The notes under the pieces: model-generated
What the model was told of the DNA's origin: nothing
Databases searched by the model: none
Seen by the model: the letters and a program-made list of their open reading frames with translations, nothing else
Position numbers and translations under genes: made by a program
Part shown: positions 3,895 to 63,042 of the stretch, in pieces
Layout: every line of letters begins with the position of its first letter
How positions within the stretch are numbered: the stretch's first letter is position 1
Source of the DNA: a virus
Lineage: Duplodnaviria > Heunggongvirae > Uroviricota > Caudoviricetes
Direction: 5' to 3' (one strand)
DNA: 64,000 nt
Virus record (IMG/VR): IMGVR_UViG_3300023171_000010
Location: 1-64,000 of that record

Positions 3895-4100
3895 TTAACT
3901 GGACTAATGTAAATGATCAACTGCCTCTAAGTGATGGTCACTATCTGATTATTACAATTGTAGGTTTTGTTGATATCCAGGCAGCGACATACTATTCAGC
4001 GTGCCATTATGGCTCAGGTCATTTTGTAGTCGATGGTATGATTGTTGATGCTACTTATTGGTCTGAAGCTAATTTTCCAGAGGAGTATGTAAATGATTAG
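3891..4100 (+). CDS. DUF551-like phage protein (paralog 1)
   Basis: MINWTNVNDQLP...GHYLI pattern (W..P..G.YL) recalled for DUF551; tandem with the next ORF. Confidence 0.4.
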   Translation: MINWTNVNDQLPLSDGHYLIITIVGFVDIQAATYYSACHYGSGHFVVDGMIVDATYWSEANFPEEYVND

Positions 4101-4296
4101 TTGGAGCAGCTGTGCAGAAGAAATGCCATCCACTGTAGGAGACTACTTGATTTGCTATGAAGTCTTTGGTTATCAACATGTTGATATTGGATATATCACT
4201 GACGATGAATTTATGATTAAGTTTGATGATGGTTATCTAGAAGTAAACGCCACCCATTGGGCAGAACTTAACAAACCGAGCCCAACTAATGACTAA
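4093..4296 (+). CDS. DUF551-like phage protein (paralog 2)
   Basis: MISWSSCAEEMP..GDYLI, same architecture as the upstream ORF. Confidence 0.4.
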   Translation: MISWSSCAEEMPSTVGDYLICYEVFGYQHVDIGYITDDEFMIKFDDGYLEVNATHWAELNKPSPTND

Positions 4297-18242: not shown

Positions 18243-20075
18243 TTATTCTCCTACTGGGAAATTTACGTTAACCTGTTCAAACATGGTTACAAGCCTATTA
18301 CCAAGGTCTTCAGCTTGAGCTGCAACATCCATATTTGCCATAGTGATAGGGTCAATACTAATCTGCAAACTTACTGAAGTAGTTAAAGGCTGAGATTTTT
18401 GTTGGTTTGCAAGATCTGCCAACATGTTTTTCAGGTTGTCATCATAATCTGAAGGATTTTTATAGAAAGCAGAGTCAGGATTATCGTAAACGGCGTTCCC
18501 TCTCTCTGTAGCTCTTCCAAAAGCATCACTAGCACCACCAAAGAATTTTCCAAGAGTTTGGTAAGTTGCTGTAATAGGTCTGTCAATGAAACTTACATCT
18601 TGCTCTTGATTTGGTGAGGCAATTAAATTATTCTTCCACTTCTGAAACTCTGCAATCTGATTCATAATCATCGCAATTTCACGAGCTGTAGCTTCTAGTG
18701 TGGGTAAGAAGTCGAACTTAATTGTACCTATACTTGTAAAAATGCTTTGAATTGTTTTCCAATCAGAAATTAGTTGTGATGTTTTATCAATACCCAGCCA
18801 ATCTGCTACAAGACTGTCTTTGCCTTCAAGAGCCCTGATGAAAGATTGAGGGAAAAGAAGTAAGTCATCAGCAAATTTGGTAGCCTCGTTGAAGCCTTCC
18901 GACAGAGTCCTTACCAAACCTCCACTCTCACTTAAACCTGCTGAAAGGGTTCTAAATATCCTAGCAAAACCCTCTTCAACGCCAGAACTTGAAGCAATTA
19001 CAGCAAGATCTGTAAGTCTATTCTGATATCTTGCTTGCTCTGCTTGAGATGCTTGAGATGCTGAAGCTAAACCCGGTGCTGCCCTTTGAGATGCTACATC
19101 TCCAGCATAAGTAAGGATATCCCCCTTGACTTTCCTGTCTTTCATAGCGGCTAACAGTTCAGTGATTGCAGCCTGACCTGTCTTACCACCGCCAGCACCT
19201 GTTGCCTTTAATTTATTTTGATAGGCTTCGGCGAAAATGCTTACAGCACCCGGCAGACTTTCTGCCAGCTGGCCTGTTAACTCTTCGCTCATCAACTGGT
19301 TCTTACCAGCAACTTGACTTAGTGCTCTATATACACGATTCTGGGCTGTTCTGTCTAATTTATTTACACGGGATAACTCAGAGAAACCTTTGAAAACTCC
19401 TTGACCTTGTTGTACGCTCATACCAGCGCCTGTGAGGCCTGACAAAAGTTTATTGTAGTCAGGAGAAGCGTCTAAGTAATTAAAGCCAATACGCTGACCT
19501 TCTTTACGGAGCCATTCGAATGATTGATTTCCCTGTTCAGCTGTACCACCGGCCTGCTGAACTACAGCCTGTGACTGAAGTTGCGCACTCACTACTTGTT
19601 GGTTTCTTTGATTCAGGGCACCGAGGCCATAACCGCCCAGACCTAGGGCCAGTGCTGGTCCATATAGTCTAGAAATCCCTCCCGCAATCCCTCCAGCAAC
19701 AGCAGCATGTCTTCCAGTGACACCAGCGCCTTGTGCGTGTACGTTAGGCCTAATTGTAGCTGATTGACTTGCTACACGACTGGCTTGTGTCGTTGCAGCA
19801 GTCATGGCCCTATTCAAATGGGCTTGGTCAACAACAAACCTTGAGATTTGGAAAGTAGTTCTAGCAGAGGCGATATCTAGTGCTGTACCAAGAGCTAAGT
19901 TTAAGCGTCTTTGGTCAACATCAAATTTACCCAATGAAAGAGTAATAGGTTTATTGGCAATATTACCAAAAGACTTAAGTCTTGCTTCAAGTCTGTTAAG
20001 TACCTTATCTACTCTTTTAACAGACGCTTTATCAATATCAAAACCTAGACTAGCGAAGTATTTACTAATTTGCAA
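18243..20075 (-). CDS. tail tape measure protein
   Basis: 610 aa, Ala/Gly/Gln-rich helical, downstream of chaperone pair; probable TTG start. Confidence 0.6.
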   Translation of the reverse strand: MQISKYFASLGFDIDKASVKRVDKVLNRLEARLKSFGNIANKPITLSLGKFDVDQRRLNLALGTALDIASARTTFQISRFVVDQAHLNRAMTAATTQASRVASQSATIRPNVHAQGAGVTGRHAAVAGGIAGGISRLYGPALALGLGGYGLGALNQRNQQVVSAQLQSQAVVQQAGGTAEQGNQSFEWLRKEGQRIGFNYLDASPDYNKLLSGLTGAGMSVQQGQGVFKGFSELSRVNKLDRTAQNRVYRALSQVAGKNQLMSEELTGQLAESLPGAVSIFAEAYQNKLKATGAGGGKTGQAAITELLAAMKDRKVKGDILTYAGDVASQRAAPGLASASQASQAEQARYQNRLTDLAVIASSSGVEEGFARIFRTLSAGLSESGGLVRTLSEGFNEATKFADDLLLFPQSFIRALEGKDSLVADWLGIDKTSQLISDWKTIQSIFTSIGTIKFDFLPTLEATAREIAMIMNQIAEFQKWKNNLIASPNQEQDVSFIDRPITATYQTLGKFFGGASDAFGRATERGNAVYDNPDSAFYKNPSDYDDNLKNMLADLANQQKSQPLTTSVSLQISIDPITMANMDVAAQAEDLGNRLVTMFEQVNVNFPVGE

Positions 20076-60530: not shown

Positions 60531-61187
60531 TTAAACCTCTTTCAATTCATTCCAATAAGATTTTGCTTTATGTCCAAATTGTACAGCCAGCTTATATCCT
60601 TTGCAAGCCCTTTGTAAAAATACTTTCAGGCAATTTTCATCACTCAAATCGTCGATAATCTCTATTCCACACACGGAGTTAGCTGAATGACTATCGTTGA
60701 TTTCATAGGCGCATTCTATCGGTAATTCATCTTGTTCGATTGATTCTTGAGGCTGTGCAGGACGTACATTTACAGCTTTCTTGTAAAGCACCTCTGCACG
60801 ATTAATCTTGACCATCAAAATGTCACGAAGAGTGCTATATTCTTCTGTTGACATGTCTGTGGTTTTGTATTCTGTTTCCAGTTCGATGAGTTGGTCACGA
60901 AGTGTAGACAAACGTTTCTTCTGTGGGAGAATCCTATCAGACAAAGGGATAGAGGTTTTACGTTTGTTGTCTTGATCTTCGGCATACAAGGCAACGTTAG
61001 CCGAACCATCACGATTGAAGTGCAAGCCACGAGATTGAGCAAGACGATTCCCAATCTGCTCACCACTCGTCTCACTGGCATTGTTCCAGCTCTGAATGCA
61101 ATATAAACGACCTGCTGTCATGACACACCTCAAAGGCTTTATCTGTTTCGTTAGGATCATTCTACACAAACAAAAGAAGGGCCGCAA
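60531..61187 (-). CDS. hypothetical protein with coiled-coil segment
   Basis: 218 aa; true start may be an internal Met. Confidence 0.4.
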   Translation of the reverse strand: MRPFFCLCRMILTKQIKPLRCVMTAGRLYCIQSWNNASETSGEQIGNRLAQSRGLHFNRDGSANVALYAEDQDNKRKTSIPLSDRILPQKKRLSTLRDQLIELETEYKTTDMSTEEYSTLRDILMVKINRAEVLYKKAVNVRPAQPQESIEQDELPIECAYEINDSHSANSVCGIEIIDDLSDENCLKVFLQRACKGYKLAVQFGHKAKSYWNELKEV

Positions 61188-61577
61188 GGGCCCTTTGAAA
61201 GAAATTTCAGACTATTTTATAGTAGAATCAACGTAACAACAAAGCCAGCAAGAAAACCCATGAGCAATAGCCACATTGTGCGGAAAGGTTCTGCATGCAT
61301 ATTCTGTGCAAATCGTGTAAACCAATTCATTATTTCTTCTCCTTAACCAGTTGACGTAGCAAATCCATCTCTTCCTTACGCTTCCTGTTGCTTGCACTCA
61401 CTGCACAGCAGATCCAGACAAGGAGCCAAGGGAAGAAGATGAGAGTTAAAATCAAATGAAAACAATGCGCAATACCAGACACAAAAACCTCCTAAACCTA
61501 CGTTATCAACAGAGAAAGACTTATTTCCTTCTCTTTATGGGGTGTAGTATGGCATAGATTTAGGAGCTGTCAAGGGT

Positions 61578-62126
61578 TTATTTATACAAATCAGCTGTAC
61601 ATTTGATCTTGTTAGCGTACCCATTAGGTTCTCCCATACGATGTGTTCCATTGATTAGGGGAATACCAGCCTGGCAGCCATCACACTGGTTGAGCTGTCC
61701 CTCTGCTGGCTTGAGTGCGGCGTCGATCTGCGCATCACGCAACCTGCTCAGCTCGCACGACTGGCGAATCTCGCGCAACAACCCCTCCAGCACGTCCGCC
61801 CGATCATCCGCTGCGGTCAGGCGCTGCTGAGGTGCGTTCAACTTGGATTCAAAAGGATCTGATTGACGGGCGAGCAGAGATTTGATTGGCACCAACAGAT
61901 CAGACGACATGGCAACTACCAGTCTCGGATCATCCAGAATTAATCTCAACAACTGGCGCGCCTTAGTCAGCTCAGATAACCATTTTGTTGCTGCGGTGTT
62001 CGTTACATTCAGCGCGTTATCAAGCCGCTCGAGATCCTCCAGCGCCGCGTCACGCTCTTTCTGACACTCATAGTATAATCCACTCAATCTATTAAACTGA
62101 GATTGTAGCGTTTCATAGTCATTCAT
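61578..62126 (-). CDS. coiled-coil protein with C-terminal CxxC zinc knuckle, encoded in a GC-rich (foreign-looking) segment
   Basis: AAGGAG RBS then ATG at 62126 (MNDYETLQ...); local GC about 55-58% against about 40% background. Confidence 0.45.
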   Translation of the reverse strand: MNDYETLQSQFNRLSGLYYECQKERDAALEDLERLDNALNVTNTAATKWLSELTKARQLLRLILDDPRLVVAMSSDLLVPIKSLLARQSDPFESKLNAPQQRLTAADDRADVLEGLLREIRQSCELSRLRDAQIDAALKPAEGQLNQCDGCQAGIPLINGTHRMGEPNGYANKIKCTADLYK

Positions 62127-62379
62127 CTTCTTTCTCCTTAATAATATTCCACTGATCATGAACATAACAACATCCACGATAATAATCAATCTCTACAGGA
62201 CATGCAAGGATTTCTTCTGTTGGCATCATACACCAAGCCTGGAAGATTGTATTCAAAGCACTTTCTCCAAGCTCACATGCATATTGAGCATCAGAAATAC
62301 TCTCTTTGTATGCTTCGCTTTCTTGACACACTTCTAAATGTTCTTGGAGGATTTGTTTTAGGGATTGTAGGGGAGTCAT
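62119..62379 (-). CDS. Cys-rich small protein
   Basis: 86 aa with several Cys. Confidence 0.35.
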   Translation of the reverse strand: MTPLQSLKQILQEHLEVCQESEAYKESISDAQYACELGESALNTIFQAWCMMPTEEILACPVEIDYYRGCCYVHDQWNIIKEKEDE

Positions 62380-62660
62380 TTTGAGTCCTTAAACTTATTC
62401 CAAGAAAGATAATCGCCTTCAGGGAGTTCATTTGTTACGTCTTTGTCTGCCCATTCTAAAAACTTTTCAATAGTAATTTTAGGGTATTTTGCACCATTGT
62501 GAACGGACGGCCCATCATACTGAAGCTCTTCCAAGCCCATCCAGATAATTGTGCGGTCATTTACATAGCTATTCCAACCTGATGTAGCACGAGGCTTCTT
62601 AGCTCGGTAAGTTTTATAAACTTCTAGTTCCATTCTATCTCTCCTCAATCCCACATTCAA
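62376..62660 (-). CDS. hypothetical protein
   Basis: 94 aa. Confidence 0.4.
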   Translation of the reverse strand: MNVGLRRDRMELEVYKTYRAKKPRATSGWNSYVNDRTIIWMGLEELQYDGPSVHNGAKYPKITIEKFLEWADKDVTNELPEGDYLSWNKFKDSK

Positions 62661-63042
62661 TTGTACTAATAAAGCCTACATCCTTGATCAAACTCATACA
62701 ACTAGGACAAGGCCAGCTATCTAGTATTCTACCTGTTCTACTGATTCTTACAACAATTATTTTGCAATTCTTCTGGTTAAATTTAGCTGCTGAAACGATA
62801 GATAAAAGCTCACTGTGACCATAGCACCTCTGAGGACTAAAGCCGTTCTTAACAGAGTATTTCCTCTGCAAAGGGTGTGTTTTGACAAAGGAATTAGGGT
62901 AGGCTGACAGGAGTTTTCCTTTCTTGTTCACAACACAAGAAAACACACGTTCATTTCCCTTGACATAAGGAATCTTTTCTGCCTGTCCCCTACAAAATTC
63001 TATTGAAGTCATTTCACAGTCCCTATTTATATTCCCTAACAA
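62635..63042 (-). CDS. CDA-fold deaminase-like protein (HxE ... PCxxC)
   Basis: GHSELLSI and PCPSC spaced as in cytidine/dCMP deaminase zinc sites. Confidence 0.4.
   Translation of the reverse strand: MLGNINRDCEMTSIEFCRGQAEKIPYVKGNERVFSCVVNKKGKLLSAYPNSFVKTHPLQRKYSVKNGFSPQRCYGHSELLSIVSAAKFNQKNCKIIVVRISRTGRILDSWPCPSCMSLIKDVGFISTIECGIEER

What the first reader, a model, noticed from the sequence alone, without database searches (positions are those of the whole stretch)
61578..62189. GC-rich (about 55-58%) gene embedded in an AT-rich early cluster; likely recent horizontal acquisition
The segment from about 61680 to 62080 is markedly GC-rich compared with the roughly 40% GC of the rest of the window. 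The encoded coiled-coil protein (MNDYETLQSQFNRLSGLYYECQKERDAALEDL...) ends in a CDGCQAG...HRMG...C zinc-knuckle. Its composition suggests capture from a higher-GC host or prophage, as in enterobacterial cryptic-prophage genes. It could be an anti-defence or host-takeover factor.
Basis: seen in the sequence. Interest (0 to 1): 0.55.

Follow-up and report, generated by a model that had tools for sequence, protein, structure and literature searches.

The report
Mosaic phage gene with Pseudomonas-derived insert
A small early gene of an uncultivated AT-rich phage carries a roughly 400-base GC-rich stretch that was recombined in from Pseudomonas temperate phages, joined to a conserved native zinc-binding tail; this is a clear but ordinary case of phage gene mosaicism in a protein family of unknown function.

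Summary
The GC anomaly is real. Window 61660-62057 has 56.5% GC and GC3 of 0.62, against 39.7% GC and a mean GC3 of 0.34. It is the strongest compositional outlier in the 64 kb.

The anomaly lies inside one gene, 61578-62126 (-), 182 aa. The true start is ATG 62126, not the upstream TTG. Only the middle of the gene is foreign.
- Codons 24-118 are 83-85% identical at DNA level to genes in ~60%-GC Pseudomonas-type phage contigs.
- Positions 61729-61660 match a Pseudomonas gessardii prophage gene exactly over 70 nt.
- From 61691 onward (codons NQCDGC..., the stop, the downstream promoter and the next gene), the sequence is AT-rich. It is shared at 78-91% with four syntenic low-GC sister phages, whose N-terminal parts all differ.

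The crossover therefore lies in the conserved NQCDGCQAGIP codons (61691-61660).

The protein has long helices followed by a C-x2-C-x10-H-x13-C knuckle. The knuckle is a portable module with no Pfam, NCBIfam or PDB match. It is under strong purifying selection (dN/dS 0.01-0.08).

The source is Pseudomonas, not enterobacteria. The acquisition is partial, not the whole gene. The zinc knuckle is native. Function remains inferred.

The parts
61578..62126 (-). Complete CDS, 182 aa plus stop. The ATG is at 62126-62124 and overlaps the stop of the upstream 86-aa gene (ATGAATGA).
   Evidence: The identical gene was called in three independent assemblies; those contigs are 100% identical to the window over 3.7-11.5 kb.
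62134..62139 (-). Shine-Dalgarno sequence AAGGAG, 7 nt before the ATG.
   Evidence: Read from the sequence. The coupling junction is conserved in sister phage L012.
62058..62126 (-). 5' part, codons 1-23 (MNDYETLQSQFNRLSGLYYECQK). GC is 0.32. No homologue was found. Only the first ~10 nt are shared with sister phages.
61773..62057 (-). Foreign module A, codons 24-118 (ERDAAL...DPRLVVAMSS...QQRLTAADDRADVLEGLL). It aligns without gaps at 85% nt identity to L021 and 83% to L004, L014 and L023; L005 is 83% with 3 gaps (53-60%-GC contigs).
   Evidence: GC is 0.54 here and 0.55 in L004. Substitutions show no AT bias (window AT where L004 GC: 20; the reverse: 17).
61730..61772 (-). Foreign module B, about codons 119-132 (REIRQSCELSRLRDAQ). 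GC is 0.64-0.67 and GC3 0.8-0.9. It has no DNA match among the fetched loci. Protein-level likeness to P0078 (LLDIRQSCELSQKRDARIDAAL).
61660..61729 (-). 70-nt exact match to the Pseudomonas gessardii DSM 17152 prophage-region gene (P0064) and to three IMG/VR prophage records. It encodes (Q)IDAALKPAEGQLNQCDGCQAGI(P).
61660..61691 (-). Crossover zone. The Pseudomonas-type exact match ends at 61660 and homology to the low-GC sister phages begins at 61691. Both allele types are nearly identical here (NQCDGCQAGIP codons).
61581..61691 (-). CCHC knuckle, aa 146-182, with ligands C148, C151, H162 and C176. GC of 61578-61659 is 0.37. It is 86-89% nt identical to low-GC sister phages and under strong purifying selection.
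   Evidence: dN/dS 0.01-0.08; the four ligands are invariant in 74 diverse sequences; AF2 pLDDT 84.
61546..61573 (-). Sigma-70-like promoter (TTGACA, 16 nt, TG-n-CATACT) just after the stop codon. It would drive the next small membrane-protein gene (61330-61482). A 64-nt exact match with sister phage L013 covers 61566-61503.

Best explanation
The GC-rich patch is the scar of homologous recombination. The recipient is a low-GC (about 39%), roughly 88-kb uncultivated myovirus. The donors are genes of the same protein family carried by about 60%-GC Pseudomonas (fluorescens-group) temperate phages and prophages.

The phage lineage has long carried a small early gene ending in a conserved CCHC knuckle (NQCDGCxAGIP..NG.HRMG..GY......C....Y). 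In this phage, everything between codon ~24 and the first codons of the knuckle (window 62057-61660) has been replaced by Pseudomonas-type helical modules. The 3' crossover lies in the NQCDGCQAGIP codons, which are nearly identical in both allele types.

The inserted part is itself a patchwork of at least three pieces with different closest relatives. Sister phages carry other N-terminal modules at the same site, two of them also GC-rich. The locus is therefore a recurrent exchange point.

Shown: the composition, the breakpoints, the affinities to the donor pool, the synteny, and purifying selection on the knuckle.

Inferred (confidence about 0.3): the product is an early-expressed, probably oligomeric helical scaffold that presents a zinc-stabilised knuckle to a host target. 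It would play an accessory, host-modulating or restriction/defence-related role, analogous in architecture and genomic position to lambda Ea22 and its neighbours. The knuckle would be the constant working part and the helical modules interchangeable.
For: Composition: (GC 0.565 and GC3 0.62 for 61660-62057, against a window GC3 of 0.343; top outlier of 119 ORFs; the control peak in the tape-measure gene has GC3 of 0.33).

Donor affinity: 285 nt at 85%, 282 nt at 83%, ungapped, to 53-60%-GC contigs; 70-nt exact match to P. gessardii; 144 homologues, all named ones from Pseudomonas; the donor-like contig L004 shares 96-97% patches around its own family gene with P. fluorescens-group phages.

Native 3' end and synteny. 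Four low-GC contigs (three of 87-93 kb, one a 1.2-kb fragment) align from 61691-61693 through the stop, the promoter and the next gene. Upstream of that point there is no similarity.

Only exchange point. In 9-14 kb of each low-GC locus, the only DNA similarity to high-GC loci is inside this gene.

Not an assembly artefact: (three independent assemblies are identical; the reading frame is intact).

Timing: no AT-ward substitution bias; dS of 0.36-0.38 for module A against donors, less than the dS of 0.56-1.25 for the knuckle against sister phages.

Protein: helices 2-65 and 93-138 at pLDDT around 90; knuckle present in 172 clusters at 50% identity, found N-terminal, internal, C-terminal or alone; C, C, H, C invariant; pLDDT 84; dN/dS 0.01-0.08.

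Context in prophages. In L006 the gene lies between RecT/YqaJ and a DUF4942-type methyltransferase on one side and the integrase on the other. In L019 it directly follows the homologous 544-aa gene.
Against: No donor closer than 83-85% was found for the main module, so the actual donor is unsampled and 'recent' cannot be dated. In its high-GC contexts the module has 54-55% GC, below the 60% of its surroundings. It may therefore have its own compositional equilibrium or a third origin.

The host of the window phage is not established. Its large terminase is only 44% identical to those of Pseudomonas phages.

The 5' junction (codons 4-23) has no identifiable source.

Nothing bears directly on function. 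There are no Pfam, NCBIfam, PADLOC, PDB-sequence or fold matches. Zinc binding is inferred from the conserved C/C/H/C pattern only.
Confidence: 0.82

Rival explanations
1. The whole gene is a recently captured foreign cassette (a moron) from an enterobacterial-type cryptic prophage.
For: The gene as a whole is the GC outlier of the window. The family sits in prophage accessory regions.
Against: The 3' 114 nt and the downstream region are AT-rich and shared at 86-91% with low-GC sister phages at the same site. The first 69 nt are also AT-rich. All named homologues are from Pseudomonas. The only non-Pseudomonas record is Pectobacterium phage Bobbio, which matches the knuckle alone.
Confidence: 0.04
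2. The GC richness is a by-product of amino-acid composition (an Ala/Arg/Leu/Asp-rich helical protein) or of local selection, with no transfer.
For: GC1 of the segment is high (0.65). The module keeps about 54-55% GC even inside 60%-GC phages. A second GC peak in the tape-measure gene is indeed composition-driven.
Against: GC3 is 0.62 against 0.34 for the window. There is DNA-level identity of 83-100% to high-GC loci. Sister phages encode analogous helical modules (LKQLLRNVRATLHFSPEDVLAIDAALRED) at native GC of 0.40-0.47.
Confidence: 0.03
3. The transfer ran the other way: the low-GC phage lineage is the source, and Pseudomonas prophages acquired the modules from it.
For: The module's GC (0.54-0.55) is below that of its high-GC hosts (0.60). 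The knuckle is old in the low-GC lineage (dS up to 1.25).
Against: Of the five low-GC phage contigs sampled, only the window phage carries module A, whereas many high-GC contigs and genomes do. The module's GC3 of about 0.6 is far from the 0.34 of the phage and close to Pseudomonas values. The 70-nt exact patch continues into Pseudomonas-type sequence on its 5' side, not into phage-type sequence.
Confidence: 0.07
4. The patch is a metagenomic assembly chimera that joins reads of a Pseudomonas phage to the low-GC phage at the conserved NQCDGC stretch.
For: The window is a metagenome assembly. A 32-nt stretch shared by both allele types could mislead a k-mer assembler.
Against: Identical sequence appears in three assemblies from different samples (ERZ27228486, ERZ27228644, SRR7968057). 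A chimera would need two in-frame junctions. The foreign segment is not identical to any sampled high-GC contig.
Confidence: 0.03

Closest known systems
Lambda Ea22 and the 'ead/Ea22-like' proteins of the lambdoid exo-xis region
   Same: Same three-part build: a short variable N-terminus, a long helical or coiled-coil middle, and a small C-terminal domain (Ea22 described in PMC10834534; this protein). Ea22 is also 182 aa. Both are early accessory genes. In Pseudomonas prophages the homologues lie between the recombination genes and the integrase, the equivalent of the exo-xis region. According to PMC10834534, the C-terminal domain differs between lambda and Stx-phage Ea22 proteins.
   Different: No sequence similarity was detectable. 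Pfam and NCBIfam gave nothing, and a search of PDB sequences found no Ea22 chain. The lambda C-terminal domain is a dimeric alpha/beta fold without zinc (PMC10834534), whereas here it is a CCHC knuckle. The pro-lysogenic role of Ea22 cannot apply directly if this phage is obligately lytic (no integrase was searched for in the window).
Mosaic exchange between phage genomes at conserved boundary or linker sequences (the modular theory of phage evolution; recalled from the general literature, not checked here)
   Same: Sharp breakpoints lie at short, highly conserved stretches (NQCDGCQAGIP codons, AALKPAEG linkers, shared start regions). Different modules occupy the same site in sister phages.
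   Different: Here the exchange is inside a reading frame and crosses a gap of about 20 percentage points in GC, between a presumably lytic low-GC myovirus and temperate Pseudomonas phages. This makes the event unusually visible.
Lar family restriction-alleviation proteins (TIGR03655 / PF14354)
   Same: Both are small cysteine-based zinc modules of prophage early regions. Lar modules are fused to members of this family (P0048; 2 of 118 knuckle proteins). A Lar gene lies in the donor-like contig L004.
   Different: Neither the window protein nor its knuckle matches the Lar models. The ligand spacing and conserved residues differ.
phrog_6574 (unknown function), e.g. PM105_08 of the B3-like Pseudomonas phage vB_PaeS_PM105
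   Same: The knuckle matches the N-terminal positions 9-48 of this PHROG. tblastn finds it at 60-69% identity at the start of PM105_08 and its orthologues, in the early region downstream of the transposase genes.
   Different: There the knuckle is N-terminal and followed by an unrelated domain of about 160 aa. The E-value is only 1.3e-4 and covers 37 residues.

Membership tests
Horizontally acquired (recombinant) segment | Composition deviates from the genome at synonymous sites | tested here: met
   GC3 is 0.62 against a mean of 0.343 (sd 0.065). The 300-bp window has z = 4.7. The control peak in the tape-measure gene has GC3 of 0.33.
Horizontally acquired (recombinant) segment | Nucleotide-level similarity to a donor pool of matching composition | tested here: met
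   83-85% identity over 282-285 nt to 53-60%-GC contigs, and a 70-nt exact match to P. gessardii.
Horizontally acquired (recombinant) segment | Absent from the orthologous site in close relatives, with mapped breakpoints | tested here: met
   Four syntenic low-GC contigs share only 61691 and downstream, plus the start-codon region. Their N-terminal parts all differ.
Horizontally acquired (recombinant) segment | Not an assembly artefact | tested here: met
   Three independent assemblies are identical and the frame is intact. Read-level support could not be checked.
Lambda Ea22 / ead-Ea22-like family | Detectable sequence homology to Ea22 | tested here: not met
   No Pfam or NCBIfam hit, and no Ea22 chain among the PDB sequence hits.
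Lambda Ea22 / ead-Ea22-like family | Variable N-terminus, then a coiled-coil, then a small C-terminal domain | tested here: met
   AF2 gives helices 2-65 and 93-138 (pLDDT around 90) followed by a 37-aa knuckle. The oligomeric state was not tested.
Lambda Ea22 / ead-Ea22-like family | Location between recombination genes and int/xis in temperate phages | tested here: met
   This holds for a Pseudomonas prophage homologue. In L006 the order is RecT, YqaJ, DUF4942 methyltransferase, the gene, then the integrase. In L019 the gene follows the homologous 544-aa gene, and no integrase lies in the ORFs listed. The window gene itself sits in a cluster of small ORFs of a presumably lytic phage.
Lambda Ea22 / ead-Ea22-like family | Pro-lysogenic activity | not testable with these tools
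   This needs genetics.
Lar restriction-alleviation family (TIGR03655 / PF14354) | Match to the family model above its cut-off | tested here: not met
   The window protein and the knuckle have no hit. Only some homologues carry a separate Lar module.
Classical CCHC zinc knuckle (C-x2-C-x4-H-x4-C; spacing recalled from memory) | Ligand spacing and a match to a model | tested here: not met
   The spacing here is C-x2-C-x10-H-x13-C (C148, C151, H162, C176). No Pfam zinc-finger model was hit even at E up to 10.
Zinc-binding domain in general | Four invariant metal ligands and a compact fold | tested here: inconclusive
   C, C, H and C are invariant in 74 diverse sequences, and the AF2 model has pLDDT 84.

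The most novel reading that the evidence does not exclude
The NQCDGC knuckle is a previously undescribed zinc-binding effector module of Pseudomonas phages that acts on a conserved host or prophage target. One possibility is restriction or defence alleviation, suggested by its fusion to and proximity with Lar modules and phage methyltransferases. Lytic phages would repeatedly swap its helical scaffold for modules taken from the resident prophage's own homologue. This might let the protein co-assemble with, or compete against, the prophage-encoded version.
Probability: 0.15. Interest if true: 0.6.

Novelty: new member of a known kind. Interest (0 to 1): 0.33.

Why it matters
It is a textbook-clear, base-pair-resolved example of in-frame module exchange between a low-GC (presumably lytic) phage and high-GC temperate phages of Pseudomonas. 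It gives a host clue for an uncultivated phage lineage of about 88 kb. It shows that one small early gene is the only point of DNA exchange between the two gene pools in the regions examined.

It also delineates an unannotated, strongly conserved CCHC module. The module occurs in 172 clusters at 50% identity and has no Pfam, NCBIfam, PDB or fold match. It is a reasonable candidate for functional study among phage early proteins.

The phenomenon itself, mosaicism by recombination at conserved stretches, is well known.

Tried and rejected
- Megablast of 61000-62800 against cultured phages found nothing. 'Distant' blastn gave only patches of 44-149 nt at the QQRLTAADERADVLE/AALKPAEG motifs and at the knuckle.
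- Pfam, NCBIfam, PHROGs and PADLOC gave no meaningful family. The weak hits to a spectrin repeat, bicaudal-D and LmuB are coiled-coil noise.
- A profile search with the knuckle against PDB sequences found nothing. A Pfam scan of 118 knuckle-bearing proteins found almost no partner domains: 2 Lar, 1 DUF4406, 1 DUF551, 1 DUF6240.
- Scans of viral, genome and metagenome contigs for closer donors found nothing better than 83-85% for module A.
- A search for a source of codons 1-23 found no significant match.
- A profile search in the large protein database returned only short stand-alone knuckles and one further taxon name, a Pseudomonas sp..
- Rejected explanations: an amino-acid-composition cause, an assembly chimera, whole-gene capture, and an enterobacterial source (see the rival explanations).

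Full report
**The observation**

The gene is on the minus strand. The ORF lister gives 61578-62189 from a TTG. The sequence shows an ATG at 62126, preceded by AAGGAG (62134-62139), overlapping the stop of the upstream 86-aa gene as ATGAATGA. Gene callers on three public assemblies also report a 182-aa product.

The GC excess is real and is the strongest in the window.
- 200-bp windows peak at 0.565-0.595.
- The 300-bp window 61661-61960 has 0.57 GC, against a mean of 0.397 and sd of 0.037 (z = 4.7).
- The gene has the highest GC of 119 ORFs.
- The excess sits at synonymous sites: GC3 is 0.62 for 61660-62057, against a window mean of 0.343.

The second GC peak, in the tape-measure ORF (19531-19830), serves as an internal control. 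Its GC3 is 0.33 and it simply encodes a Gly/Ala-rich stretch.

The GC richness is not uniform along the gene. Codons 1-20 and 151-182 have native composition.

**What the window is**

The window encodes a ribonucleotide reductase, tail fibres, baseplate, tape measure, sheath, protease, portal and large terminase. It is part of an uncultivated myovirus of about 88 kb, found as 88,180-bp and 88,341-bp contigs.

Megablast of the 1.8 kb around the gene (61000-62800) finds no cultured phage. The large terminase is 44% identical to those of Pseudomonas phages such as PAK_P3, UAVern and M5.1.

The gene lies in a long run of small same-strand ORFs with sigma-70-like promoters. This fits an early cluster, although expression timing was not tested.

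**Homologues**

The large protein database holds 144 relatives. Every one that carries a name is a Pseudomonas chromosomal protein (fluorescens, veronii, lactis, brenneri) or belongs to a Pseudomonas phage. tblastn against cultured phages hits Pseudomonas temperate phages (HU1, phiAH14a, B3-like PM105/H71/Ps59/Ps60), Pseudomonas phage UNO-G1W1 (Otagovirus, 98.6 kb) and Pectobacterium phage Bobbio. Species-representative genomes give P. gessardii and Pseudomonas sp. SJZ074.

The family is strikingly modular. Recurrent blocks are:
- (D)FDRVTAERDAAL
- LQQRLTAADERADVLEGLL
- an AALKPAEG linker
- optional terminal cysteine modules

The commonest terminal module is NQCDGCQAGIP..NG.HRMG..GY......C....Y.

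**Anatomy at DNA level**

The gene was compared with the DNA of homologous loci.

1. *nt 1-69 (62126-62058).* GC is 0.32. There is no detectable homologue beyond the first ~10 nt, which belong to the conserved translational-coupling junction.
2. *nt 70-354 (62057-61773).* These align without gaps at 85% to L021 and at 83% to L004, L014 and L023; L005 is 83% with 3 gaps. These contigs have 53-60% GC. L004 and L005 encode a DUF2800 protein and a helicase; L004 also encodes a primase-polymerase and an Sf6-type terminase.
3. *nt 355-397.* This stretch is GC-rich with no DNA match, but resembles P0078 at protein level.
4. *61729-61660.* This is an exact 70-nt match to the P. gessardii DSM 17152 gene encoding P0064, and to three IMG/VR prophage records.
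5. *61691-61693 onward.* This covers the knuckle, the stop codon, a TTGACA-16-TGnCATACT promoter and the next small membrane-protein gene. It aligns at 78-91% with four contigs of about 38-39% GC (L007, L011, L012, L013; three of them from 87-93 kb contigs) that are syntenic with the window over many kilobases.

Upstream of 61691 these sister phages have no similarity to the window gene. Each has a different N-terminal part. Two are GC-rich (0.51 and 0.54 for the gene; segments up to 0.78). Two have native GC (0.41-0.43) and carry a low-GC version of the helical module, LKQLLRNVRATLHFSPEDVLAIDAALRED.

The Pseudomonas-type exact match and the phage-type homology overlap in 61691-61660, the NQCDGCQAGIP codons. 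Both allele types are nearly identical there, so that is where the crossover occurred.

In 9-14 kb of each low-GC locus, the only DNA similarity to any high-GC locus lies inside this gene. Conversely, the donor-like contig L004 shares its 96-97% megablast patches with P. fluorescens-group phages only in and just downstream of its own family gene (one further 90% patch lies about 2 kb upstream). The family is a recombination hot spot.

**Direction and timing**

Module A has 0.54 GC in the window and 0.55 in L004. The 47 differences show no AT-ward bias in the window lineage: 20 are AT in the window where L004 has GC, and 17 are the reverse. Amelioration is therefore undetectable.

dS between module A and its nearest high-GC relatives is 0.36-0.38. 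That is smaller than the dS of the knuckle between the window and its sister phages, 0.56-1.25. This fits acquisition after the sister lineages split.

The nearest sampled donors are still 15-17% divergent, and further scans found none closer.

The reverse direction is unlikely. Of the five low-GC phage contigs sampled, only the window phage carries module A, while many high-GC contigs and genomes do. The module's synonymous composition is also close to that of Pseudomonas.

An assembly chimera is unlikely, because three assemblies from different samples are identical.

**The protein**

AF2 with a 38-sequence alignment gives long helices 2-65 and 93-138 at pLDDT around 90, and an unresolved tail.

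A 43-residue query of the knuckle against 1.84 billion cluster representatives finds 172 clusters. The knuckle occurs at the N-terminus, internally, at the C-terminus, or alone in proteins of 44-90 aa. One example is an unannotated ORF of Pseudomonas phage UNO-G1W1 that begins MRNQCDGCQAGIP.

In 74 diverse copies, C148, C151, H162 and C176 (window numbering) and two glycines (G150, G160) are invariant. With that alignment AF2 reaches pLDDT 84, as a short helix, two short strands and a C-terminal helical turn.

The knuckle has no match in:
- PDB by sequence or profile
- BFVD at a significant level
- Pfam, even at E up to 10

Partner domains are almost all unannotated. Two Lar modules, one DUF4406, one DUF551 and one DUF6240 are the only Pfam hits among 118 proteins. 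PADLOC gives nothing.

The knuckle is under strong purifying selection, with dN/dS of 0.01-0.08 against sister phages. Module A is less constrained, at 0.26-0.39.

**Context of the homologues**

In a P. veronii prophage (L006) the gene follows RecT, YqaJ and a DUF4942-type methyltransferase and precedes the integrase. In the P. gessardii region (L019) it directly follows the homologous 544-aa gene. In B3-like transposable phages the knuckle heads gene 08, in the early region after the transposase genes.

This is the positional equivalent of the lambdoid exo-xis region. Its largest product, Ea22, is also 182 aa and has a variable N-terminus, a central coiled-coil and a separate C-terminal domain. 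Ea22 acts early and favours lysogeny (PMC10834534). The resemblance is architectural and positional only. No sequence relationship was detected, and the C-terminal domains differ.

**Interpretation**

The best-supported account, at about 0.8 for the origin, is in-frame homologous recombination in a Pseudomonas cell between the resident allele of the low-GC phage and alleles of co-resident temperate phages or prophages. The exchange would use the conserved knuckle codons, and probably the conserved linkers and start regions, as crossover points.

What the protein does is inferred, at about 0.3. It would be an early helical, probably oligomeric scaffold carrying a zinc-stabilised knuckle that engages a host or prophage factor. 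The only functional association is with restriction-alleviation (Lar) and methyltransferase genes.

**Verdict**

The horizontal-acquisition reading is right in kind, but needs three corrections: the donor pool is Pseudomonas, the acquisition is partial and mosaic, and the zinc knuckle is native.

This is a clear instance of a well-known process, in a protein family that is itself unannotated. Interest is modest.

Noticed in passing
window 19531-19830 (inside ORF 18243-20075, minus strand): This is the second-highest GC peak of the window (0.537). It lies in the tape-measure gene and encodes a Gly/Ala-rich stretch (AGVTGRHAAVAGGIAGGISRLYGPALALGLGGYGLGALN). GC3 is only 0.33, so the peak reflects amino-acid composition, not transfer.
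   Followed up: yes
L009 (Pseudomonas phage UNO-G1W1, PP551948.2) 3995-4252: There is an unannotated ORF beginning MRNQCDGCQAGIPLVNGTHRMGKPGGYPDLMGCTAKLYRE, directly after CDS0027. It looks like a stand-alone copy of the knuckle that the deposited annotation missed. The true stop and length were not checked, and it overlaps the annotated CDS0026.
   Followed up: partly
window 61503-61573 and 61330-61482 (minus strand): A sigma-70-like promoter lies right after the gene's stop codon. It is followed by a 50-aa single-pass membrane protein (MSGIAHCFHLILTLIFFPWLLVWICC...). The promoter and leader match sister phage L013 exactly over 64 nt, far better conserved than the flanking coding DNA.
   Followed up: partly
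window 61177-61195 (minus strand): A terminator-like hairpin (AAGGGCCCTTGCGGCCCTT plus a T-run) lies between the small membrane-protein genes and the 196-aa gene that starts at 61121. It may mark the end of a short transcription unit.
   Followed up: no
L019 7142-7624 and L006 8920-9366; L013 6001-6492; L007 413-754: The neighbouring gene in Pseudomonas prophages begins MTTNQTIGGVPRGEP and contains YAEHPAPVA and LDPVERLAVCRGE. It shares short modules, and 32-35-nt patches at 91-97% identity, with the N-terminal part of the L013 knuckle gene; the L007 gene shows only the peptide likeness. Several adjacent prophage genes therefore feed modules into this one phage locus.
   Followed up: partly
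window 62635-63042 (minus strand): A 135-aa ORF has a weak cytidine/deoxycytidylate deaminase zinc-binding match (PF00383, E = 0.004, below the cut-off). It is conserved upstream of the locus in sister phages L012 and L013, where it also gives a weak PF00383 hit.
   Followed up: no
L004 (SRR7963841) and L003 (SRR7968057): A donor-like 60%-GC phage contig and a contig of the window phage come from sequencing runs with neighbouring accession numbers. They may be from the same study and environment, which would fit co-occurrence of the two phages. Sample metadata could not be checked.
   Followed up: no
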